Source: Escherichia phage EdH4. Taken from it: a stretch of DNA of 64,000 nucleotides. The notes under the pieces are model-generated. The model was given only the letters and a program-made list of their open reading frames with translations. It did not search any database and was not told the origin of the DNA. The DNA lies in the sequence record MK327930.1, one strand, 5' to 3'. Below, in pieces: positions 10,744 through 36,197 of this stretch; the first letter of the stretch is position 1, and every line of letters begins with the position of its first letter. A program made the translations under genes and the position numbers.

Positions 10744-11019
10744 TTATTTTTTATTAAACCAGTGGTTGATCTGACCTTTTGTCAGGGCGCAACGATTAAG
10801 CTGTTGCAGGGTATAGCTATGACCGCGACGAAATTTATAAAGGCCTTGCCCGTTGTTGATGGTTACATCCACCCGGCAAATCACTTGATTGGTGACCACC
10901 TGGCGAGTGTTGCGACGTACTTTGATCCCGTATGCGTTCATAAATTTATCCTCTTTACTGGTTAGTGCGGTGTTGTTCACCTTGTAGGGTAATAATACCA
11001 TGATTAACCTTGTTGTCAA
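10744..11019 (-). CDS. Hypothetical protein
   Basis: 91-aa ORF. Confidence 0.55.
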   Translation of the reverse strand: MTTRLIMVLLPYKVNNTALTSKEDKFMNAYGIKVRRNTRQVVTNQVICRVDVTINNGQGLYKFRRGHSYTLQQLNRCALTKGQINHWFNKK

Positions 11020-11022
11020 CGA

Positions 11023-11196
11023 CTATTTTAAATTATTTTTATGATAGAATCCACCTGCCGCCCCCCGCCAGGTTAACCACCATTTTTCGTACTCTTCTTT
11101 ATGTTCCAACGCTCCCGCCATAGCCTTTTCAACCAGGGCGATAGCCTCAGAGTCATTAATAGCTACATTTTCCAGGGGGATCATATTACCTTTCAT
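11023..11196 (-). CDS. Hypothetical 57-aa protein (below ORF-track cutoff)
   Basis: RBS gaggagg then ATG; MKGNMIPLENVAINDSEAIALVEKAMAGALEHKEEYEKWW... Confidence 0.45.
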   Translation of the reverse strand: MKGNMIPLENVAINDSEAIALVEKAMAGALEHKEEYEKWWLTWRGAAGGFYHKNNLK

Positions 11197-11354
11197 TTTT
11201 GTACCTCCTCTTCAATTGTTACCTATCCTGTAGCATAGGCCCACCAGGTTTACAAGCCTTCATTCTCCCCTACCTGGTCAGTTAGGTCCTGCCAGGCTGG
11301 CCCCGCCAGGTTGCAGCGGTTAGCGCATCAGGTTAGAAAAATTTTTTGAAAAGT

Positions 11355-11383
11355 GTTGACAGCGGCCCCGCCAGGTGGCACAA
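11355..11383 (+). promoter_or_regulatory. Plus-strand sigma70-like promoter TTGACA-N17-CACAAT pointing into a non-coding region
   Basis: No plus-strand ORF downstream; the GC-rich element begins about 18 nt after the -10. Confidence 0.45.
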
Positions 11384-11400
11384 TATACCTATCGAAAGGA

Positions 11401-11437
11401 CGGCAGGCACCGGTGACGGGGGAGACAACCACCGGGG
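11401..11437 (+). repeat. GC-rich repeated element, copy A
   Basis: cggcaggcaccggtgacgggggagacaaccaccgggg; related to copies at 11555 and 2212. Confidence 0.6.
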
Positions 11438-11500
11438 ATGGGCGCTGCATAAAATGAGAACGGTTATCATTATCATTTAAAAATTTATGCAAAAAAATCC

Positions 11501-11531
11501 TTGCTTTCTTTGTCCTGTGTGATACTATAAT
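11501..11531 (+). promoter_or_regulatory. Plus-strand promoter TTGCTT-N16-TACTATAAT
   Basis: Transcribes toward the AT-rich iteron region; no ORF downstream. Confidence 0.45.
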
Positions 11532-11554
11532 AACAAGCCGGGGCAACAGGGGCC

Positions 11555-11577
11555 GGGAGACAATCACCGGGCCTGCC
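11555..11577 (+). repeat. GC-rich repeated element, copy B
   Basis: gggagacaatcaccgggcctgcc; exact reverse complement of 2212-2234. Confidence 0.7.
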
Positions 11578-11699
11578 CGTTATTCTGCAAACGAGAATGA
11601 TTATCATTCAAAATTCTAAATGAGAACTCCTAGCATTTAATAAATTTAATTAGCACGCTAATTACCCTCCGTAACAATTTACTATAAAATAGTATCCAC

Positions 11700-12190
11700 T
11701 AAAATATTCCCATATAGAAATTTTAAAAATCCATTTCTGAAAACGAAAAATCGATTTCGTCCCCAAAAATTTCAGGTTGAGAGCCGGAACGATTTCCAGA
11801 AAATCCGATTCAGAAAACGAAAAACAGATCGAGTACTGAGAAATTTATCGAGAAAAATTTTCAGAAAATCCAAGCCCTGAAATGAAAAGTAGATCGAGTA
11901 CCTGGAAAGCTGCACCGCAACTTCAAGATAGCGGTTAGATTGTTACCATAGAAGGTCAAGGGTAAGTGGAGGAAGTTCTAGTAGAGAGAGGTTAGCATGT
12001 GTGGGAAATCTATAATGGTGGCCTGGAATATGGTGCAAACGATAGGATGAGTTATTCAGCTTGTCGCGCCTACTCTGAAAAATCCATTTTAGTTTTCGAT
12101 CCATTTTCTGATTTTCTAAGAATTTTAAAATATCCAGCCCGGTGAAATATCAAAAGGAGGAAATCCATTTTAGAAATCCCCCTTATACTT
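11700..12190. repeat. AT-rich non-coding region with iteron-like direct repeats (candidate replication origin)
   Basis: Three copies of a unit agaaaatcc-N-cagaaaacgaaaa-N-agatcgagtac at about 11720-11905, plus aaaatccatttt copies at about 12075-12180; no ORF on either strand. Confidence 0.5.
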
Positions 12191-12213
12191 GATATGCCAG
12201 GAATTTTCAAGTA

Positions 12214-12543
12214 TCAGTTGTCTTTGTTTTTAGGTTTGTACATGCGCAGAGGTATGGTCTTTGTAACATTCCATTTCCTCAACCCTTCCCAGCTCCAGTT
12301 GTGGGCGTGGTATCCGGTTATGCATGCACTACTGGAGTGATCGTAAGCATAAGAGAACGCTAAGCGCACCAGGTGGGGCCAGTCCTTCCATGGTTGTGGA
12401 CCGTAAGCTTTTCTCCAACACCGACACAAACTAAATGTCTCAAGGATAGGAAGGATAACAAACCCATACACTGTCACCAAAATAGCCAGTGCAATGATTG
12501 TCAGGAATACATACCCTGCAGTTGAAATGATGATCTCTGTCAT
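12214..12543 (-). CDS. Membrane protein
   Basis: 109-aa ORF with N-terminal TM helix IISTAGYVFLTIIALAILVTVYGFVILPIL. Confidence 0.55.
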   Translation of the reverse strand: MTEIIISTAGYVFLTIIALAILVTVYGFVILPILETFSLCRCWRKAYGPQPWKDWPHLVRLAFSYAYDHSSSACITGYHAHNWSWEGLRKWNVTKTIPLRMYKPKNKDN

Positions 12544-12737
12544 TTGTCCTCCCCTTTCTTACGAATATAGATGTGAGATCCTGCCTGTATATAAATTTCT
12601 CGACCATCTTCTGCAAAGATATGAAATACACGATCACCTTCGTACTCGATACGAGATATTTTCATAATGGTCTTTCCACCTGGGATACGGATCTCGTCCC
12701 CCACAGCGATGTTCCATGCAGATTTAAGCTTAAACAT
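12540..12737 (-). CDS. Hypothetical protein (start trimmed to an internal Met)
   Basis: The track ORF overlaps the upstream gene by 74 nt; the internal ATG removes the overlap. Confidence 0.45.
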   Translation of the reverse strand: MFKLKSAWNIAVGDEIRIPGGKTIMKISRIEYEGDRVFHIFAEDGREIYIQAGSHIYIRKKGEDK

Positions 12738-12975
12738 CTGCACCTTCCTTTGGGAGCTCGAACTCTGGCATAGCCATATACGCCACAACAGGGTTGTAAT
12801 CAAAGTAGAAATGACCGTTAATTATCCCAGTTTTGTGAGCATAGTCACCAGATCCTGCAAGAACAACCTCGCAAACTCCGAAATCAACCTTGCCATTCTC
12901 ATCTGCCATGGCTACAATATACTTTCCTAGAGGCATGTTTTTAACGCCGTCTACAAATGTCCACCCTTTGTTCAT
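12730..12975 (-). CDS. Hypothetical protein
   Basis: 81-aa ORF. Confidence 0.5.
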   Translation of the reverse strand: MNKGWTFVDGVKNMPLGKYIVAMADENGKVDFGVCEVVLAGSGDYAHKTGIINGHFYFDYNPVVAYMAMPEFELPKEGADV

Positions 12976-12996
12976 AACTTTATCTCCTGGACTTTC

Positions 12997-13329
12997 TTAA
13001 GGTAACCAGTAAACAATTTCGCCTTTCAGTTCCATGTCGTTACCGACATAGATTTTCCAGCCATCCATTTTAGCCACTGCAGGAGTGAAGTCCGAAGAAC
13101 CACTAACCTCTTTCCAAGTCCCGTAGTCAGGTTGCCAGATATAGAATCCACCTTCCTTGTCCCATGCTCCATATACCACATCGAGCAGGTTGCCCATTGC
13201 AACAATAGTAGGCCGTGGGAATAATACATCTACAGATGCACCACAATTTCTGGTAGATTTTAAATTACAATCCCAAAAGATGTCTGCCAGTGTGGCGGCA
13301 ATAGCTTTACGTCTTTCCAATGTTACCAT
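12997..13329 (-). CDS. Hypothetical protein
   Basis: 110-aa ORF. Confidence 0.55.
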   Translation of the reverse strand: MVTLERRKAIAATLADIFWDCNLKSTRNCGASVDVLFPRPTIVAMGNLLDVVYGAWDKEGGFYIWQPDYGTWKEVSGSSDFTPAVAKMDGWKIYVGNDMELKGEIVYWLP

Positions 13330-13339
13330 GGCACGATAC

Positions 13340-13531
13340 TCACTTGTTGTTAAGAAGTTCTAAAACTTTCTGTTTTACTTTGTCAAGGTCTGTGGATTCA
13401 AAAACTGTACGATATCCCCAACTTTGCCCATAGGAGTGACTGCAATCCCCGTAGCACCATTGCTCAATTTGATAGTATTCAAGGAACGGGTGCTGTCTAA
13501 CTATGATACCATCCCGGTTAAAAATTACCAT
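13340..13531 (-). CDS. Hypothetical protein
   Basis: 63-aa ORF. Confidence 0.5.
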   Translation of the reverse strand: MVIFNRDGIIVRQHPFLEYYQIEQWCYGDCSHSYGQSWGYRTVFESTDLDKVKQKVLELLNNK

Positions 13532-13594
13532 AATACATCACCCTCTGTTAGTTTATGCGTATATTATACACTGCAGTTTTCAGATGTCAACCTC

Positions 13595-13789
13595 TTACAG
13601 ATTGCTCCAATACAATCGGCATTTACATTTTGGGCAATGAGGTTCTTTTATGTAGTAACCGTCAGTCTTTGGAACACTTTTTGGTGCAGTTTTAAGATTG
13701 TACCTGGTAAAACATCGGAAGCAGGTTACCTCTCCCACCTGTTGATCGTTGATCCACTCACCGGAGTAAAGTTCTTTCTTGTTTCTCAT
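13595..13789 (-). CDS. Small zinc-ribbon protein (CxxC...CxxC)
   Basis: Start trimmed to ATG with a GGGAGAG RBS; CFRCF...CPKCKC. Confidence 0.45.
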   Translation of the reverse strand: MRNKKELYSGEWINDQQVGEVTCFRCFTRYNLKTAPKSVPKTDGYYIKEPHCPKCKCRLYWSNL

Positions 13790-14015
13790 AATTCTCTCCC
13801 AAATCCTCTGCAATCTTATACCAAAATCTCCAGCCAGAAAGCACATGGGAACACTTTGAGGATTGAATCTTTACTTGGCTCGGAAGTTCTTTTTCCGTAT
13901 GGTAGGTAGAAATACCCTCCTGCAGATTCGAATATAGCTCCTTCGGTTGTATCTACCACAGCAAGAATTAAGATTTTAGTCTCCACAGTGCTCTCCTCTC
14001 TTAGTTGTCGTGGAA

Positions 14016-14044
14016 ACTATATCACCTCAGAAGATGGTCGTCAA
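14016..14044 (-). promoter_or_regulatory. Sigma70-like promoter TTGACG-N17-TATAGT
   Basis: Immediately downstream of the macrodomain gene stop. Confidence 0.4.
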
Positions 14045-14499
14045 CACTTTTTGTACTCCACCACGACAATATCTATGTCGAAAGTGGCAAGGTTAATAAC
14101 GTCCTCTACGTGTTCCCACTTCAAACCGCCTATGCCGCACCCGATCTTAGGGATGTAGAATGGTAAAGTCGATCCGCTGAATACTTCATTGACTAGCTCA
14201 AAGCCTTTCAGGATTGAGAAATACTCAGCATTAGGTCCTGGGTAGAACTGGGTATATAGATTGATTCCGTAGACAATACCTATCGGAGATAAGTGCTCCC
14301 ATCGGGAGAACGCACCCAGTTTACTTAGGCAACCGTATCTAGTCTCTTTGTCGGCTGACAGTGCTTGAGGAAACTCACGGGCAATCTGTTTTGCTATACC
14401 CTTGCCCATTGTGTGGAAGCAGTTACAACCGTGGATCAGGTGACCAGCACCGCTCTTAAAAAGGGAGATTAAATCTCCCTCTACAGTATCAATAATCAC
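14041..14499 (-). CDS. Macrodomain protein, TARG1/OARD1-like (putative ADP-ribose hydrolase)
   Basis: GAGHLIHGCNCFHTMGKGIAKQIAREF and PKIGCGIGGLKWEHVEDVI match recalled TARG1 blocks (LAHCISEDCRMGAGIA; MPRIGCGLDRLQWENV); start trimmed to a GTG overlapping the upstream stop. Confidence 0.6.
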   Translation of the reverse strand: MIIDTVEGDLISLFKSGAGHLIHGCNCFHTMGKGIAKQIAREFPQALSADKETRYGCLSKLGAFSRWEHLSPIGIVYGINLYTQFYPGPNAEYFSILKGFELVNEVFSGSTLPFYIPKIGCGIGGLKWEHVEDVINLATFDIDIVVVEYKKC

Positions 14500-14914
14500 G
14501 GTAAGCCAGCTCCTCTTCCGCAATTTCAAAAAACTCAGTCCAGCACTGTGGCATATTGGAGTTACCGAAGTGGCTTTCATAGTAAAGGTTCTTACCGCTA
14601 GGAAGGTAGAAATCTGTTACCTCATAAAATCCACAATCGTCGCACTCACCTTCTTCAAACTTGGCCTTAACCTTAATACCGAGGAAGGTGAAAAGTTTAT
14701 GGACATCTTCAGTTTCGAACTCCCAGGGAATGTTGTTTTCCGCATCGGTGTAGAACTGGATCAGCAGACCATTGTCCAGTTTACCAAAATACTCTGTGAA
14801 GTAACTTCCTTCCCAGAAATCTTTATGACAAATAATATCCATGCGTTTGCCCATAATAATGGTGTGAGCGTTTTGGGCATCGTCACGAATCAGTTTTGGC
14901 ATTTCATAGATCAT
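14489..14914 (-). CDS. Hypothetical protein
   Basis: 141-aa ORF, translationally coupled to the macrodomain gene. Confidence 0.55.
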   Translation of the reverse strand: MIYEMPKLIRDDAQNAHTIIMGKRMDIICHKDFWEGSYFTEYFGKLDNGLLIQFYTDAENNIPWEFETEDVHKLFTFLGIKVKAKFEEGECDDCGFYEVTDFYLPSGKNLYYESHFGNSNMPQCWTEFFEIAEEELAYRDY

Positions 14915-14982
14915 CTTAGTTCTCCGGGTTCAACAGGTGGTGGTGCTACAGGAAGATCATAAAACATGGCTATCACAGTCTC

Positions 14983-15180
14983 TTACACAGGAATTGCTTC
15001 AAATAGACCGTTATCTATACCGTCCTTCAGATAGAGATTATATTCTATATCGGTATCTGTATAAAGGGCAGCATCCAGCATTCTATCTGTGAGTCCATCC
15101 ATCGGGTGGAGAAACCACCACCCACGCCAGTCAAAGTAACAGCCTGGTGCATCTTCTCTTACACGGATTCGATAAATCAT
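14983..15180 (-). CDS. Hypothetical protein
   Basis: 65-aa ORF. Confidence 0.45.
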   Translation of the reverse strand: MIYRIRVREDAPGCYFDWRGWWFLHPMDGLTDRMLDAALYTDTDIEYNLYLKDGIDNGLFEAIPV

Positions 15181-15276
15181 GGGCAGTGGCCTCCTGTTAG
15201 TTATACATCCCAGTTTTCTTCGTTCATCACGTCCTCCCGTTCTATGAAGTTATAATTGCACACCTTTCAATCCGTG

Positions 15277-15693
15277 TCAACAGAAAACTTCAACAAATTC
15301 TTCCACAGTTTTAATGTCGTGGGAAAAAGGTTTACGGCTATAACGGGCAATAGCACTATCAACCACCGCCCGGTACTCCAAATCTTCAGAATATTTCATG
15401 AAGCATTGTAGCGTCTCTGGGCAGATAGCTAAATAGCTCCACCACCCCTCTTCAGATTGGTAGTCGAATCCCATACTCTCCAACCATGAAGCATATACGT
15501 CTGCACCCTCAAGCCAGTGAGTGTTTTCATCCAGGAACTTGTTAACAGACATGTGGGCTTCCAAGCATTTATCCAACTCTTTTCCGTTAACCAGCCACGC
15601 ACTGACCGTGGCGCATCCAAGGTCTACAGATTGAGTTGACAGGTTGTATTGGTCATAGTTCTCAGGCTTAACAATGATATCTTCTAATGTCAT
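15277..15693 (-). CDS. Hypothetical protein
   Basis: 138-aa ORF with a GGAG RBS. Confidence 0.55.
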   Translation of the reverse strand: MTLEDIIVKPENYDQYNLSTQSVDLGCATVSAWLVNGKELDKCLEAHMSVNKFLDENTHWLEGADVYASWLESMGFDYQSEEGWWSYLAICPETLQCFMKYSEDLEYRAVVDSAIARYSRKPFSHDIKTVEEFVEVFC

Positions 15694-15712
15694 TTTTCAG
15701 ATCTCCTTATAC

Positions 15713-15740
15713 AAAAATGCCCCACCCTTTCGGGCAGGGC
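15713..15740 (-). terminator. Rho-independent terminator after the SSB-like gene
   Basis: Hairpin gccccaccctttcgggcagggc plus T-run on minus; the same 22-nt hairpin recurs at 25850-25871. Confidence 0.65.
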
Positions 15741-15755
15741 TATGTTAACTAAATG

Positions 15756-16982
15756 TTAAAATGGGATGTCATCATCAAAGACGTACTGTGCTGGATTCTG
15801 ATCCATCGGGTCATCTTCCTCATCATTTACAGGAGGGGCGTCTACAGTGTTTTGCTGTGGAGCGGCTTCCTGTTTGGCAGCTTGAGGTTCTTGATGGTCA
15901 GTGGACTCAGCACCGTTCTTGATCCAATCGTACAACGGCTCAGCCAGATTAGTCAAGACATCTTTTGCTTCTGCAGTAATTGCCACTGCAAAATCATCAA
16001 CTTTCGTTTTCTTGTCAATACGGCGACAAGCGTTCAACACCGCATTACCGACACTGGCACCTACTTCATCTTCAGTTCGGTTGGTGGCTTGAGCATACTC
16101 TTTCTTAAGCTCAATGGTGACTACGTGCAGTGTTTTAGCCACGCCCAGTGGGTCGTCTACCTTAAACCCGCGATCCAGGATGATCTGCAACGCATTGATG
16201 CTATGCCCCGTTTCCACACCGATAGGGTCGTAAGAGGATTTACGCTTGCCACCAGAGCCTTGAGTGCCGTTCTCTGCCTTAGGAGGATAGGCCTTGAAAC
16301 CACTGATAATGTTTCCGGTGTCTTTGTCAACAATGGCTGCAACACGACCACCTACCACCAGGTCTTTAAGCTGCTCATCAGTTACAACCATAGCACCTTC
16401 GCCAATCTTGTGGTCATTAACAGTAACCACGTTGCCAACAATCTGAGTCACATCACCATAGATGCGTAAAACGTCCTGATTGGCATTCTGCTGAGGTTTC
16501 TGCTTCTGGCCTTGTGATTGTGCACCTTGTTGCTGTTTTTGCTGCTGAGTCGCTGCTGGAGCCTCTCCTGCACCCAGCTTAACCATCTTAGCCAGTGAGC
16601 CCTTGTAATAGGTCTTACCGTTATGCTCGTTTGCCTTCAAAGGTATATTTACGATCCATCCTGGCGTTACGGTTTCCCACTTGTCATCAATCTTAACAGA
16701 GACAGAGTCTTGATGACCTGGTTTAAGCAGCTTATCACCCATGCTGATCCAGACTTCTTCACCACCTTGAAGCAGGTTATCAGAGGAATCCAGTTCAGAA
16801 ATCAGTAAAGAGATGGTGTGGCTGGATTCAATTTTCTTACCTTGCCACACAGTGGTTTTAATACCTGTTGTAGGATCAGCACCTTTGATAGGCTTGATGC
16901 TAACACGTTTAATCATGCCGTGAGCCAGTAAAACAGTTTCACGCGGATTCATTGGGTTAGCGAATTGTTGAATAACGCTCAT
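15756..16982 (-). CDS. Single-stranded DNA-binding-like protein with SSB-type acidic C-terminal tail
   Basis: C-terminus ...DDDIPF is identical to the E. coli SSB tip; Q-rich linker QQQKQQQGAQSQGQKQKPQQ; 408 aa. Confidence 0.6.
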   Translation of the reverse strand: MSVIQQFANPMNPRETVLLAHGMIKRVSIKPIKGADPTTGIKTTVWQGKKIESSHTISLLISELDSSDNLLQGGEEVWISMGDKLLKPGHQDSVSVKIDDKWETVTPGWIVNIPLKANEHNGKTYYKGSLAKMVKLGAGEAPAATQQQKQQQGAQSQGQKQKPQQNANQDVLRIYGDVTQIVGNVVTVNDHKIGEGAMVVTDEQLKDLVVGGRVAAIVDKDTGNIISGFKAYPPKAENGTQGSGGKRKSSYDPIGVETGHSINALQIILDRGFKVDDPLGVAKTLHVVTIELKKEYAQATNRTEDEVGASVGNAVLNACRRIDKKTKVDDFAVAITAEAKDVLTNLAEPLYDWIKNGAESTDHQEPQAAKQEAAPQQNTVDAPPVNDEEDDPMDQNPAQYVFDDDIPF

Positions 16983-17347
16983 TATTTGTCTCCTTGTTCT
17001 TCGTTAGTGCTTGCCGTGTGTGCGAACCCTGCTTGAATTAATTTGTCCTGAACTTGAGCCAACAGGCCCATTGCAAAACTTGTAGTCCCAGAGAGGGCCA
17101 TCAGCATATCTCGTTGTTGAGCTACCCAACCTAAGGCATAGTCCAAACGACGATATTTTTCTTCTTCACGCAAAGCTTGGAATAATTGTTCAGCCTCTGG
17201 CTGTTGTGTAAGCTCCTGAAGTCTTCCCATGAAAGAAGAAAGCACTAGCAGAAGAGACACTTGATCTTTACTTAACCCTAAGAAAAATTCTTGAGGTTGT
17301 TCTTGCTCGTTCATCGCAACCGACGTTTGATCGTTCATTTGTTCCAT
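16982..17347 (-). CDS. Hypothetical protein
   Basis: 121-aa ORF, start overlaps the upstream stop. Confidence 0.55.
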   Translation of the reverse strand: MEQMNDQTSVAMNEQEQPQEFFLGLSKDQVSLLLVLSSFMGRLQELTQQPEAEQLFQALREEEKYRRLDYALGWVAQQRDMLMALSGTTSFAMGLLAQVQDKLIQAGFAHTASTNEEQGDK

Positions 17348-17430
17348 TATGGAATCTCCGATTTTATTTGAACAACATAGAAGGAGACACTATTTTAGCA
17401 TCCCCTTCTGTAAATTACAATAGGTATTTG

Positions 17431-17676
17431 TTAGCCAATCACTTCGAAAGTTCCCCAATTCCCGTCCAGCAGGCAGGTGATCGGATCCCCATCGTCGTCA
17501 AAGATTTCAAAGTTTTCAGCATCCAGGATGTGGCCCTCGAACACAATACTTTCGTCGCCACCACCAGAAATAACAGCGTATTCCTTACCTTGAGTCAAGT
17601 TTTGACACCCTTTGCCACCAAAACCTACTTCAACACAACGTACTTTCTGTCCTGCGCGAGCAACTACTTCAGTCAT
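17431..17676 (-). CDS. Hypothetical protein
   Basis: 81-aa ORF. Confidence 0.5.
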   Translation of the reverse strand: MTEVVARAGQKVRCVEVGFGGKGCQNLTQGKEYAVISGGGDESIVFEGHILDAENFEIFDDDGDPITCLLDGNWGTFEVIG

Positions 17677-34318: not shown

Positions 34319-35503
34319 TTAAGCTTTAGCCAAAATGGCGCTAAACTCTTCACCAAACTCTTTTACAATCTTCATCAGGTTTGGGTATGCTTTGATCAGC
34401 TGAGCAACAATCTTGTCACGCCCTTTACCGATAAGCAAGGCATTTCCTAAGGCATTAGGTTTCATCATCGCCATAAAGACTGAGAATACAAAATCTCGGT
34501 TCTCGTCCTTGAAGTTTTCCCAAAGGAAATCGAGGAAGTTTGCCACGCAGCTGACAAGATCTTCGTCTGAGATACTTGCATTTTCCATCATATTGCGAAT
34601 AGCGATACAACCTTCAGATCCAAGAATCCACAAAATGTCTGGCTGCTTAGGACCTACGTATTCTTTGCAGCCACCTGCCATAATCCGACCGATTTCCGGT
34701 AAATTACGTTTCTTGGTGTGGTAAGTCCAGATCTCTACCGCTGCAGTGTGACCAATAGCACCTTGTAGAAGAACACGGGCCATAGCGTCAGAAATAATAC
34801 CGCTGTCAAAATCGTGCAAGATGTCAGATGCAGCAACCCAAGATCGTGGTGTGGCAAAAGATGGACAATTAATCTCAGCCATAGCCTCATAATTATCAAT
34901 AGCTGATGGAACTCTTTTCAGATACCCAATTACAGAGGAGTGAACCCCGTTGAGGAATGCGTAGTCCTCAATAAACACCTCTGCATTGCTTGTAACCTCT
35001 ACAATGATAAAACGGTTAGCCAGAGGGGCTTCGAGCGCCGAAAGAACCGCACCATCTGTAGAACGGTTACCCGCAGCCACAAAAACAGAACCCTTAGGGA
35101 ATGCATAGGTGCCGCACTTGTGGTCAAGCATAATTTGCATTGCAACCTTTTGCAGGTAGTTATCTGCATGAGTGAGCTCATCCAGAAAGATAATTCCGCT
35201 CCAGTCAGGATCCGCAGGCCAAAATTCTGGAATTGCAAACACTGTACGTGTAGTTCCATCCGCTTCTACAGGGATAGGTAGCCCAGATAAGTCGGCAGGA
35301 TCTTTATCTGACAGTCGCACGTCAACAAGGTTGTCATCTCGCTCACCGAACATATTATCAGCGATCTGCTTCATCACCTGGCTTTTACCCACACCCATTG
35401 GTCCCAAAATTAGGACAGATCGGCTATGACGTTGGGCAAACTGAATAATAGCTGGCAACTCACGGACAGTGATTTGACCACTTTCGAATACGTTTCTTGA
35501 CAT
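34319..35503 (-). CDS. MoxR-like AAA+ ATPase
   Basis: Walker A GPMGVGKS; Walker B IIFLDELTHA. Confidence 0.75.
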   Translation of the reverse strand: MSRNVFESGQITVRELPAIIQFAQRHSRSVLILGPMGVGKSQVMKQIADNMFGERDDNLVDVRLSDKDPADLSGLPIPVEADGTTRTVFAIPEFWPADPDWSGIIFLDELTHADNYLQKVAMQIMLDHKCGTYAFPKGSVFVAAGNRSTDGAVLSALEAPLANRFIIVEVTSNAEVFIEDYAFLNGVHSSVIGYLKRVPSAIDNYEAMAEINCPSFATPRSWVAASDILHDFDSGIISDAMARVLLQGAIGHTAAVEIWTYHTKKRNLPEIGRIMAGGCKEYVGPKQPDILWILGSEGCIAIRNMMENASISDEDLVSCVANFLDFLWENFKDENRDFVFSVFMAMMKPNALGNALLIGKGRDKIVAQLIKAYPNLMKIVKEFGEEFSAILAKA

Positions 35504-35816: not shown

Positions 35817-36197
35817 CTAAAATGCAGTCCGAATCCAGACAAGGTTCTTATCTGCCCAATCATAGAGGCAAGTCATTGCACTATTGAATTGCTCACACGG
35901 AGGATAATCTTCTTCCATCTGGCGCATAGCAGAGCCTTGTGGGTAAAGCTCCCGTGCTGCAAACCACGCATCGTAGTCATCCACGGTATCGAAGTAGTAT
36001 ACAACATCCTCCAACTCAGGATCGAACTTTGAACTATCAGGATCCAGTTGTTCAGGGAACTTGGAGCGTAACTTGCCAGCCACAATACTTGCCAACTCGC
36101 TAACATGCTTATTGTCCCACTCCACTAGCTTCCCGTCTTCAGTGATGCGTCCTAACCACTGATCATGAAGGTCAACTGTTGTCTTCCACTGAGCCAT
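35817..36197 (-). CDS. Hypothetical protein
   Basis: 126-aa ORF. Confidence 0.55.
   Translation of the reverse strand: MAQWKTTVDLHDQWLGRITEDGKLVEWDNKHVSELASIVAGKLRSKFPEQLDPDSSKFDPELEDVVYYFDTVDDYDAWFAARELYPQGSAMRQMEEDYPPCEQFNSAMTCLYDWADKNLVWIRTAF

What the first reader, a model, noticed from the sequence alone, without database searches (positions are those of the whole stretch)
12214..15693. Accessory gene block between the origin-like region and the SSB terminator
About ten small genes here (membrane protein, zinc-ribbon protein, macrodomain, several unknowns) are bounded by the non-coding iteron region on one side and a strong terminator at 15713-15740 on the other. There is an internal promoter at 14016-14044, and some annotated ORFs in the track overlap on both strands. 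This is the layout expected for a variable anti-defence or host-takeover island.
Basis: inference. Interest (0 to 1): 0.5.

Follow-up and report, generated by a model that had tools for sequence, protein, structure and literature searches.

The report
Conserved accessory early-gene block of rV5-like phages
This stretch is a set of eleven small, real but dispensable genes that every rV5-like E. coli phage carries in the same order; one of them is a relative of the T4 enzyme that counters the DarTG2 bacterial defence, so the block is ordinary and already in public genomes rather than a variable island.

Summary
The window is a Vequintavirus (rV5-like coliphage), 98-99% identical to phages Alma, HdK5 and APECc02. 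Positions 12214-15693 hold eleven minus-strand genes of 56-152 aa. They lie downstream of a strong terminator (15740-15719) that ends the SSB-like gene. Three conserved sigma-70-type promoters lie between the genes, not one; the one at 13590-13563 matches the consensus perfectly.

The genes are real: dN/dS is 0.02-0.30. The block is not variable. It is present in the same order in 115 of about 118 Vequintavirus records. Its composition matches the rest of the window in GC, tetranucleotides and codon usage.

The block is genus-specific. Sister genera end the replication module at the SSB-like gene and lack the block. Several of its genes are shared patchily with unrelated coliphages, and the macro, zinc-ribbon and g7 genes are closest to Krischvirus.

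Published transposon sequencing of the orthologous block in phage Bas54 scores ten genes non-essential and one as reduced fitness.

The macrodomain gene (14041-14499) is a Tk.4/AdfM homologue (39% identity to T4 Tk.4, the anti-DarTG2 factor; DarG-like). The other ten genes have no assigned function.

Verdict: an already known, accessory, probably early, partly counter-defence block. Low interest.

The parts
15719..15740 (-). Intrinsic terminator ending the SSB-like operon, immediately upstream of g1
   Evidence: 9-bp stem (7 G-C), 4-nt loop, T run. Invariant in 9 Vequintavirus loci. Annotated at -17.8 kcal/mol in HdK5.
15277..15693 (-). g1, 138 aa, acidic (net -15), function unknown
   Evidence: phrog_8967. 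dN/dS 0.039. A 64%-identical homologue sits in lambdoid prophage early-left operons beside Rad52/Erf-HNH-SSB-Abc2 genes. The AF2 model is unusable, pLDDT 44. An AAGGAG ribosome-binding site follows the terminator directly, with no promoter in between.
15252..15280 (-). Promoter-like site P_g2 (TTGACA-17-AATTAT, extended -10 TG); the g1 stop codon lies inside the -35 hexamer
   Evidence: 10/12 match. Both hexamers are conserved in all but the most divergent of the 9 relatives, Aya, which has one -10 change. Sequence read.
15201..15227 (-). Eight-codon mini-ORF (MNEENWDV) with its own GGAGG, between P_g2 and g2
   Evidence: Read directly. The region is nearly invariant in relatives. Function untested.
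14983..15180 (-). g2, 65 aa, function unknown
   Evidence: phrog_9903. dN/dS 0.023. 54-58% identical homologues in Justusliebigvirus (phi92-like) coliphages.
14489..14914 (-). g3, 141 aa, acidic (net -16), function unknown
14041..14499 (-). g4, 152-aa stand-alone macrodomain of the Tk.4/AdfM type (DarG-like); GTG start overlapping the end of g3
   Evidence: PF01661. phrog_335. 38.6% identity, E 1.6e-39, to T4 Tk.4 and 69% to JSE Tk.4. PADLOC DarG E 2.9e-13 and NCBIfam DarG 46.8 bits. Best PDB hit is the M. tuberculosis DarG macrodomain 5m3i.
14016..14044 (-). Promoter-like site P_g5 (TTGACG-17-TATAGT, extended -10 TG); the g4 stop codon lies inside the -35 hexamer.
   Evidence: 10/12 match. 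Hexamers conserved in 9 relatives.
13816..13986 (-). g5, 56 aa, genus-restricted ORF in the only variable slot of the block
   Evidence: phrog_15268. dN/dS 0.077. Absent between tk.4 and the zinc-ribbon gene in Krischvirus. rV5 has an extra 70-aa ORF207 beside it.
13595..13789 (-). g6, 64-aa zinc-ribbon protein (PF23903)
   Evidence: Pfam E 8e-23. 78% identical to the JSE gene that overlaps tk.4. Neighbourhoods in 22 viral contigs examined. Missing in phage Aya.
13563..13590 (-). Promoter-like site P_g7, a perfect sigma-70 consensus (TTGACA-16-TATAAT)
   Evidence: 12/12 match. Annotated as P205 in rV5. The -35 hexamer is invariant and the -10 is conserved in 7 of 9 relatives.
13340..13531 (-). 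g7, 63 aa, function unknown; the only block gene with a fitness cost when disrupted in Bas54
   Evidence: phrog_6957. 84-88% amino-acid identity to Krischvirus proteins. bas54_0095 scored 'Reduced fitness', 11 of 15 TA sites hit.
12997..13329 (-). g8, 110 aa, genus-restricted, two allele classes
   Evidence: phrog_11918. 85-87% or 96-100% nucleotide identity among relatives; dN/dS 0.10.
12730..12975 (-). g9, 81 aa, function unknown
   Evidence: phrog_7252. 42-54% identical homologues in Phapecoctavirus, Justusliebigvirus and Klebsiella phages, and 40% in Av-05 at another locus. Highest dN/dS of the block, 0.30.
12540..12737 (-). g10, 65 aa, genus-restricted
   Evidence: phrog_14110. dN/dS 0.035. 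Start taken from the HdK5 and Bas54 annotations.
12214..12543 (-). g11, 109 aa, single-pass membrane protein; last gene before the non-coding repeat region
   Evidence: Kyte-Doolittle 2.77 over residues 16-34. phrog_2531. Two allele classes; dN/dS 0.10.

Best explanation
The block is a conserved, genus-specific cluster of eleven small accessory genes of Vequintavirus.

Position. It lies between the end of the replication module (the essential SSB-like gene and its terminator) and an essential non-coding repeat region.

Expression. It is most likely transcribed leftwards by host sigma-70 RNA polymerase early in infection. Three promoters lie between the genes, in front of g2, g5 and g7. g1 has no promoter of its own and is probably reached by read-through of the SSB terminator. 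This step is inferred from consensus matches and their conservation, not shown.

Function. The products are dispensable in a laboratory host but are kept by purifying selection, so they probably act on the host under particular conditions. The one gene with a supported role is g4, a stand-alone DarG-like macrodomain of the Tk.4/AdfM family. It is predicted to remove the ADP-ribose that the DarT2 toxin places on thymidines of single-stranded phage DNA, and so to protect replication from DarTG2 defence. This is inferred from homology to T4 Tk.4. The other ten genes remain unassigned: a zinc-ribbon protein, a membrane protein, two strongly acidic proteins of about 140 aa, and six small proteins.

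Origin. The block appears to have been assembled after Vequintavirus split from its sister genera, partly by gene exchange with other large coliphages. The macro and zinc-ribbon genes and g7 are closest to Krischvirus versions.
For: Real genes under selection:
- dN/dS is 0.02-0.30 for all eleven, against 0.047 for the essential SSB-like gene.

Conserved content and order:
- 115 of about 118 Vequintavirus records cover at least 80% of the block at 90-99% identity. All eleven genes were found in seven of the nine loci examined in detail; Aya lacks the zinc-ribbon gene g6 and V18 has truncated g4 and g5.

No foreign composition.

Genus-specific position:
- In SSE121, Av-05 and Mydo the SSB-like gene is the last gene before a terminator and convergent tail-fibre genes.
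- The replication module is collinear with those phages, but no block gene is found there.
- The PVP-SE1 macro gene sits in a different module.

Patchy sharing with unrelated coliphages:
- about 70% nucleotide identity of the macro and zinc-ribbon genes with Krischvirus;
- g7 is 84-88% identical at protein level.

Dispensability:
- Bas54 transposon sequencing scores 10 of 11 orthologues as non-essential and 1 as reduced fitness, with protein identities to the window of 83-100%.

Promoters and terminator are conserved across the genus.

g4 assignment:
- Tk.4 family membership.
- DarG profile and structure matches.
- Knockout of T4 tk.4 sensitises T4 to DarTG2 (bioRxiv 10.1101/2025.11.20.689424).
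- A separate phage macrodomain, PhiKZ gp104, removes DarT2 ADP-ribose from DNA in vitro (PMC13309987).
Against: - No expression data were found, so early timing and read-through at the terminator are inferred from consensus matches only.
- g4 is only 39% identical to T4 Tk.4, and the T4 evidence is genetic and from a preprint.
- The residue aligned with the catalytic lysine of DarG (K80 in T. aquaticus) is glutamine in g4, as in T4 and JSE Tk.4. The chemistry may therefore differ from DarG and from PhiKZ AdfM, which keep the lysine.
- None of the eleven Bas54 orthologues became conditionally essential in the one clinical isolate with held data. DarTG2 was not tested on a Vequintavirus.
- Ten of the eleven genes have no functional evidence at all.
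Confidence: 0.72

Rival explanations
1. One reading: a variable, horizontally exchanged anti-defence or host-takeover island whose content differs between related phages.
For: - The block is lineage-specific at subfamily level.
- Several genes are shared patchily with unrelated coliphages.
- g4, g8 and g11 each occur as two allele classes (78-87% or 96-100% nucleotide identity).
- There is small-scale variation around the macro and zinc-ribbon genes.
- The block contains an AdfM-like gene.
Against: - Content and order are the same in 115 of about 118 genus members.
- There is no compositional signal.
- There is no conditional essentiality in the one clinical isolate with data.
- The anti-defence genes that the Bas54 paper validated (bas54_0063 and bas54_0140), and the screen's other hits (0106, 0123-0134, 0150-0152), all lie outside the block.
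Confidence: 0.15
2. The macrodomain acts in nucleotide or RNA-end housekeeping rather than counter-defence. It would be a Poa1p-like ADP-ribose-1''-phosphate phosphatase that clears by-products of phage tRNA repair or NAD+ turnover, and the block would be a metabolic accessory cluster.
For: - Depositors annotate it as a 'phosphatase' or 'Poa1p-like' protein.
- The N-terminal 43 residues match yeast Poa1p structures (6lfu, E 5.5e-6).
- The catalytic lysine of DarG is not conserved.
- rV5-like phages carry Sir2, tRNA-ligase and NAD-salvage genes (PMC9503650).
Against: - The full-length best structural and profile matches are to DarG, not Poa1p.
- The T4 orthologue has a DarTG2-specific phenotype.
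- No RNA-repair genes lie in or beside the block.
Confidence: 0.15
3. The block genes are auxiliary replication or recombination factors tied to the neighbouring SSB-like gene and the origin-like region.
For: - The block lies between an essential SSB-like gene and a non-coding region that is essential in Bas54.
- The g1 homologue in lambdoid prophages lies directly upstream of Rad52/Erf, HNH, SSB and Abc2 genes.
Against: - All eleven orthologues tolerate transposon insertion in Bas54.
- Sister genera replicate with the same module and lack the block.
- No DNA-metabolism domains were detected.
Confidence: 0.08

Closest known systems
T4 Tk.4 / AdfM (anti-DarT factor macrodomain; HIDEN-SEQ preprint 10.1101/2025.11.20.689424)
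   Same: - g4 aligns over its full length: 38.6% identity, E 1.6e-39.
- It shares the motifs HGCNCFHTMG, NLYTQFxPGPN and P[KR]IGxGIG.
- It is a stand-alone protein of about 150 aa.
- It has Gln at the position of the DarG catalytic Lys.
   Different: - It lies in another genomic context, not between vs and tk.
- Its activity against DarTG2 has not been tested for any Vequintavirus.
- It is closer to Krischvirus Tk.4 (69%) than to T4.
DarG antitoxin macrodomain (T. aquaticus and M. tuberculosis DarG, PDB 5m31/5m3e/5m3i) and PhiKZ gp104 AdfM (PMC13309987)
   Same: - It has the same macrodomain clade as its best profile and PDB matches.
- The Asn that corresponds to DarG N22 is kept, as N26.
   Different: - It has no C-terminal DarT-binding domain and no adjacent darT gene.
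- It scores far below the NCBIfam DarG cut-off (46.8 against 250 bits).
- The catalytic Lys (K80; K78 in PhiKZ) is replaced by Gln84.
Orthologous block bas54_0089-0099 of Escherichia phage MaxBurger (Bas54)
   Same: - Same eleven genes, same lengths and same order.
- 83-100% protein identity.
- Same flanks, with an SSB-like gene upstream and a repeat region downstream.
   Different: - Bas54 has a homing endonuclease between the SSB-like gene and the terminator.
- It carries the other allele class of g4 and g11.
T-even 'hyperplastic' regions of small non-essential early genes (for example T4 tk to vs)
   Same: - Arrays of small, dispensable, promoter-rich genes.
- Includes tk.4, and in Krischvirus the same macro and zinc-ribbon gene pair.
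   Different: In T-even phages these regions vary between close relatives. Here the content is fixed across the genus.

Membership tests
Tk.4/AdfM-type phage macrodomain | Full-length sequence similarity to T4 Tk.4 | tested here: met
   38.6% identity over 153 columns, E 1.6e-39. 68.9% identity to JSE Tk.4.
Tk.4/AdfM-type phage macrodomain | Macro domain above the curated threshold | tested here: met
   PF01661 28 bits against a cut-off of 22. phrog_335 E 2e-59.
Tk.4/AdfM-type phage macrodomain | Protects the phage from DarTG2 / removes ADP-ribose from DarT2-modified DNA | not testable with these tools
   Shown genetically only for T4 tk.4. Needs a knockout and an enzyme assay.
DarG antitoxin (type II toxin-antitoxin DarTG2) | Macrodomain similar to DarG | tested here: met
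   PADLOC DarG E 2.9e-13 over profile positions 4-142 of 329. PDB 5m3i E 1e-6.
DarG antitoxin (type II toxin-antitoxin DarTG2) | Reaches the curated equivalog score; has the C-terminal DarT-binding domain | tested here: not met
   46.8 bits against a cut-off of 250. Only the N-terminal 141 of 338 profile positions are matched, and the protein is 152 aa.
DarG antitoxin (type II toxin-antitoxin DarTG2) | Catalytic Lys (K80 in T. aquaticus) and Asn (N22) | tested here: not met
   The Asn is kept (N26), but Gln84 aligns with the Lys in both the HMMER and the MAFFT alignments, with identical spacing of 58 residues.
DarG antitoxin (type II toxin-antitoxin DarTG2) | Adjacent darT toxin gene | tested here: not met
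   The neighbours are g3 and g5, and no PADLOC hit was found for any other block protein tested (g10 was not scanned).
Variable anti-defence / accessory island | Gene content differs between closely related genomes | tested here: not met
   115 of about 118 records cover at least 80% of the block. All eleven genes were found in 7 of the 9 loci examined, and the differences are minor.
Variable anti-defence / accessory island | Composition or codon usage differs from the rest of the genome | tested here: not met
   GC 43.4% against 43.9%. Tetranucleotide distance at the 33rd percentile. Codon-usage p = 0.27.
Variable anti-defence / accessory island | Genes dispensable in a permissive laboratory host | tested here: met
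   Taken from the literature for the Bas54 orthologues: 10 non-essential and 1 reduced fitness.
Variable anti-defence / accessory island | Genes become essential on hosts that carry the matching defence | tested here: inconclusive
   No depletion was seen in one clinical isolate: log2 fold change -0.03 to +0.64, q at least 0.9. No other hosts or DarTG2 data are held.
PF23903 phage zinc-binding domain (g6) | Profile match above the curated threshold, with the Cys-x2-Cys ... Cys-x2-Cys-x-Cys pattern | tested here: met
   80.5 bits against a cut-off of 27. The cysteines are invariant across five divergent homologues.

The most novel reading that the evidence does not exclude
The 64-aa zinc-ribbon protein g6 (PF23903) may be an uncharacterised counter-defence factor, or a partner or regulator of enzymes that destroy nucleotide-derived immune molecules or modifications.

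In 22 viral contigs that encode a relative:
- 13 have a Tk.4/DarG-like macro gene within 4 kb on the same strand. It directly abuts the zinc-ribbon gene in Krischvirus and is one gene away here.
- 5 jumbo-phage contigs have it immediately after an Acb1-type anti-CBASS 2H phosphodiesterase and before Sir2 and Nudix genes.
- Contigs resembling the sister genera have it immediately after an HD phosphohydrolase.

Many of these contigs are related to one another, so the number of independent observations is about four lineages.
Probability: 0.25. Interest if true: 0.5.

Novelty: already known. Interest (0 to 1): 0.2.

Why it matters
It matters little as a discovery. The same block is present and annotated in more than a hundred public rV5-like genomes, and its dispensability has been measured in Bas54.

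Practical value:
1. It gives a cleaner annotation: eleven genes, three promoters, one upstream terminator, and the opposite-strand ORFs dismissed.
2. It identifies the macro gene as a candidate AdfM, which predicts that Vequintavirus phages, which are used in therapy cocktails, resist DarTG2.
3. It offers a testable lead that the small zinc-ribbon protein travels with counter-defence enzymes in several phage groups.

Tried and rejected
- Word-indexed protein searches for g6, g3 and g1 returned only 2-4 clusters each, too few for deep alignments. The g1 search did reveal prophage homologues.
- Pfam, NCBIfam and PADLOC gave nothing for any block protein scanned other than g4 and g6; g10 was scanned only against Pfam and PHROGs.
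- Rfam and tRNA scans of the block and the neighbouring repeat region found nothing.
- T4 Tk.3 and rV5 ORF207 were considered as zinc-ribbon homologues because of their position and length. BLASTP found no similarity, so this was rejected.
- The SSB identity of the 408-aa neighbour has no Pfam or PDB support. It rests on depositor names, essentiality in Bas54, and a C-terminal DDDIPF.
- I looked for Bas54 data on a second clinical isolate. The two resampling tables held in the supplement are identical, and the console line names CFE311 while the sheet label says CFE303. Only one comparison is therefore usable.
- I found no paper testing DarTG2 on Vequintavirinae.
- The exhaustive HMMER search of protein representatives was not used, because its hits cannot be fed to structure prediction and would not change the verdict.

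Full report
**Identity of the window.** Positions 11000-17500 match 124 phage records by megablast. Of these, 111 cover at least 80% of the query at 90-99% identity. The best are Escherichia phages vB_Eco_Alma, APECc02 and HdK5, at 98-99%. All are Vequintavirus, the rV5-like myophages of E. coli. Coordinates in HdK5 run parallel to the window, offset by about 17-21 bases.

**Anatomy.** All coding in 12214-15693 is on the minus strand. In the direction of transcription:

| Gene | Coordinates | Length | Notes |
|---|---|---|---|
| g1 | 15693-15277 | 138 aa | |
| g2 | 15180-14983 | 65 aa | |
| g3 | 14914-14489 | 141 aa | |
| g4 | 14499-14041 | 152 aa | GTG start confirmed by homology to JSE Tk.4, |
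| g5 | 13986-13816 | 56 aa | |
| g6 | 13789-13595 | 64 aa | |
| g7 | 13531-13340 | 63 aa | |
| g8 | 13329-12997 | 110 aa | |
| g9 | 12975-12730 | 81 aa | |
| g10 | 12737-12540 | 65 aa | |
| g11 | 12543-12214 | 109 aa | |

- The SSB-like gene (16982-15756) ends 16 bases before a strong terminator at 15740-15719. An AAGGAG ribosome-binding site and the g1 start follow directly, with no promoter between them.
- Three sigma-70-like sites lie in intergenic gaps:
  - TTGACA-17-AATTAT at 15280-15252, before g2;
  - a perfect TTGACA-16-TATAAT at 13590-13563, before g7, annotated as P205 in rV5.
- The terminator is invariant, all three -35 hexamers are invariant, and the -10 hexamers are nearly so, in nine Vequintavirus loci.
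- The stop codons of g1 and g4 lie inside the -35 hexamers, as tgTTGAC.

**Are the genes real?** Pairwise comparison with nine relatives gives dN/dS of 0.02-0.30 for all eleven. The essential SSB-like neighbour gives 0.047. Three of the four opposite-strand ORFs tested carry stop codons in most of the nine relatives. Only 14570-14962(+) stays open, in 8 of 9, and it lies opposite g3, which is itself under purifying selection. The 'overlap on both strands' is therefore mechanical.

**Is it variable, and is its composition different?**
- The block alone matches 177 records by blastn. About 118 are Vequintavirus, and 115 of them cover at least 80% of the block at 90-99% identity. The other 59 are Krischvirus and similar phages that match only the macro and zinc-ribbon segment.
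- In the nine loci examined in detail, every gene is present in order, with these exceptions:
  - phage Aya lacks g6;
  - V18 has a truncated g4 and a partial g5;
  - rV5 and, judging by an insertion of the same size, rV5_ev156 and Phage 203 carry one extra 70-aa ORF between g6 and g5;
  - g10 is frameshifted in the original rV5 record.
- g4, g8 and g11 each occur as two allele classes: 78-87% or 96-100% nucleotide identity.
- Composition is unremarkable. GC is 43.4% against 43.9%, at the 38th percentile of equal-sized windows. Tetranucleotide distance is at the 33rd percentile. GC3 is 44.5% against 44.2%. Codon-usage distance is no larger than for random gene sets (p = 0.27).

**Wider comparison.**
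- In the sister genera (SSE121, Av-05, Mydo) the SSB-like gene is 38-39% identical. It is the last gene of its unit, followed by a terminator and convergent tail-fibre genes.
- A local tblastn of all window ORFs shows the replication module, from DNA polymerase to the SSB-like gene, to be collinear with those phages. Nothing from the block is found there.
- The PVP-SE1 macro gene (34% identity) lies in a MoxR to RNA-ligase module elsewhere in the genome.
- Genes beyond the non-coding region (window 1-10.7 kb) have scattered homologues in the small-gene regions of Av-05 and PVP-SE1.
- The block therefore sits at a module junction and is specific to Vequintavirus.

**Distribution of individual genes outside the genus.**
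- g5, g8, g10 and g11 gave no listed hit outside the genus in the phage collection.
- g1 has 64-68% identical homologues in Escherichia prophages.
- g2 is 54-58% identical in phi92-like phages.
- g3 is 38% identical in Krischvirus.
- g6 is 78% identical in Krischvirus, about 60% in jumbo Yersinia and Erwinia phages, and about 40% in Klebsiella T4-like phages.
- g7 is 84-88% identical in Krischvirus.
- g9 is 42-54% identical in Phapecoctavirus, Justusliebigvirus and Klebsiella phages.
- g4 matches 2,771 phage records.
- The macro and zinc-ribbon segment is about 70% identical at DNA level to the Krischvirus tk.4 region. There the two genes overlap, with no g5 between them.

**Experimental data from the literature.** A 2025 preprint (10.1101/2025.11.20.689424) reports transposon-insertion sequencing of the Vequintavirus Bas54 (MaxBurger, MZ501093).
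- Its genes bas54_0089-0099 have the same lengths and order as g1-g11 and are 83-100% identical in protein.
- Ten are scored non-essential, with 86-100% of TA sites hit. bas54_0095 (g7) is scored 'reduced fitness', with 11 of 15 sites hit.
- The SSB-like gene bas54_0087 is essential (8 of 57 sites). The homing endonuclease bas54_0088 is not.
- In the one comparison with a clinical isolate that is held, none of the eleven is depleted: log2 fold change -0.03 to +0.64, q at least 0.9. Significant hits lie elsewhere in the genome.
- The small ORFs annotated in the adjacent non-coding region tolerate almost no insertions: bas54_0101 0 of 11 sites, bas54_0102 5 of 15. These map to window 11662-11766 and 11342-11607.

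**The macrodomain.**
- g4 is 38.6% identical to T4 Tk.4 over its full length (E 1.6e-39) and shares its motifs.
- The same preprint shows that tk.4 insertions are depleted specifically on DarTG2, and that a clean knockout sensitises T4. It names the gene adfM.
- The best matches for g4 among solved structures and defence-system profiles are DarG macrodomains: 5m3i at E 1e-6, PADLOC DarG at E 2.9e-13, and NCBIfam DarG at 46.8 bits covering only the macrodomain part.
- An independently named AdfM, PhiKZ gp104, removes DarT2 ADP-ribose from DNA in vitro. It keeps the DarG active-site Asn and Lys (PMC13309987).
- g4 keeps the Asn (N26). It has Gln84 where DarG has the Lys, as do T4 and JSE Tk.4, with identical spacing of 58 residues.
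- I therefore file g4 as a Tk.4/AdfM family member, not as a DarG. I rate the anti-DarT2 role at about 0.55-0.6. The older 'Appr-1''-p phosphatase' reading remains a live rival.

**The zinc-ribbon protein.** I searched IMG/VR with a profile of five homologues of g6 (PF23903) and recovered 22 loci. Local searches of their flanks show the following:
- 13 loci have a macro gene within 4 kb on the same strand.
- Five jumbo-phage loci have a 148-aa 2H enzyme directly upstream. It scores as Pfam Acb1, the anti-CBASS family (PF23474, E 1e-15, 58 bits against a cut-off of 27). Sir2 and Nudix genes lie directly downstream, inside a cluster that also holds a nicotinamide phosphoribosyltransferase.
- Contigs that resemble the sister genera have an HD phosphohydrolase directly upstream.
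- Many of these loci are related by descent, and the Vequintavirus pair was probably acquired together. This is a lead, not a demonstration.

**Other genes.**
- g11 has a single strong transmembrane segment.
- g1 and g3 are strongly acidic, with net charges of -15 and -16. This is typical of some DNA-mimic inhibitors but proves nothing.
- The prophage homologue of g1 lies at the head of an operon with Rad52/Erf, HNH, SSB, Abc2 and Ead genes.
- Structure prediction did not help.

**Verdict.** The block is accessory, is driven by host-type promoters, and contains a likely counter-defence gene. It is not variable and not compositionally distinct. It is a fixed, genus-specific feature already present in public genomes, and its dispensability has already been measured. 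Interest is low. The most novel reading left open concerns the zinc-ribbon protein.

Noticed in passing
window 11342-11916 (repeats at 11713-11908; 18-mers at 11725, 11799, 12159): The non-coding repeat region just downstream of the block corresponds to the Bas54 ORFs bas54_0100-0102, which tolerate almost no transposon insertions (0 of 11 and 5 of 15 TA sites). The 105-nt core at 11662-11766 is 99% identical to Bas54, while its flanks are 87-93% identical. No Rfam family or tRNA was found. It is an essential element of unknown nature: an origin, an RNA or a small protein.
   Followed up: partly
window 15201-15227 (-): An eight-codon mini-ORF (MNEENWDV) with its own GGAGG lies between promoter P_g2 and the g2 ribosome-binding site. 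The stretch is almost invariant across nine relatives. It may be a leader peptide.
   Followed up: partly
window 15277-15282 and 14041-14046 (-): The stop codons of g1 and g4 are embedded in the -35 hexamers of the next promoters (tgTTGAC). The end of each gene therefore overlaps the start signal of the next unit.
   Followed up: no
window 15741-15755; L002, L006, L007, L008: Many relatives (rV5, Bas54, Bas58 and others) carry an endonuclease VII / HNH homing-endonuclease gene of about 600-650 bp between the SSB-like gene and the terminator. It overlaps a lengthened 3' end of the SSB gene. The window lacks it. It is non-essential in Bas54.
   Followed up: partly
window 15756-16982 (-): The 408-aa 'SSB' has no Pfam or PDB sequence match. 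Its last six residues are DDDIPF, which from my own knowledge is the C-terminal tip of E. coli SSB that recruits partner proteins. It is essential in Bas54.
   Followed up: partly
L017 2495-2941 and L018 2514-2960 (jumbo phages CBB and fHe-Yen9-04): The gene annotated as 'structural protein' or 'RNA ligase' directly upstream of the zinc-ribbon homologue scores as Pfam Acb1, the anti-CBASS family (E 1e-15). It sits in a cluster of NAMPT, Acb1, zinc-ribbon, Sir2, Nudix and PhoH genes that looks like a counter-defence island.
   Followed up: partly
L020 8001-8417 (Escherichia chromosome CP099344.1): A 64%-identical homologue of g1 (cluster of 251 sequences) heads a prophage operon with Rad52/Erf, HNH, SSB, anti-RecBCD (Abc2), DUF5405, DUF2737 and Ead/Ea22 genes, next to an integrase.
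   Followed up: partly
window 13340-13531 (-): g7 is 84-88% identical in protein to a Krischvirus (RB49-like) gene located far from tk.4 in those genomes. This points to recent exchange between unrelated coliphages. It is also the only block gene with a fitness cost in Bas54.
   Followed up: partly
window 14570-14962 (+): A 130-aa ORF antisense to g3 stays open in 8 of 9 relatives, unlike the other antisense ORFs. This is probably a by-product of g3 codon structure, but it was not tested.
   Followed up: no
window 34319-35503 (-) and 35817-36197 (-): The window also encodes the MoxR ATPase orthologue (50% identical to PVP-SE1 gene 225). The Bas54 counterpart, bas54_0063, is reported as required to overcome the predicted defence system DS-28. 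In sister genera the macro, zinc-ribbon and HD-hydrolase genes cluster near this MoxR gene instead.
   Followed up: no
Supplement 9 of 10.1101/2025.11.20.689424: The two Bas54 resampling tables held as text are identical. The sheet label reads K-12 vs CFE303, while the logged command uses the CFE311 file, so only one host comparison can be used.
   Followed up: yes
(records MG0656xx): About 16-20 records named 'Campylobacter phage' with host C. jejuni are 93-95% identical to this E. coli phage block. They are rV5-like genomes and the host label looks doubtful.
   Followed up: no
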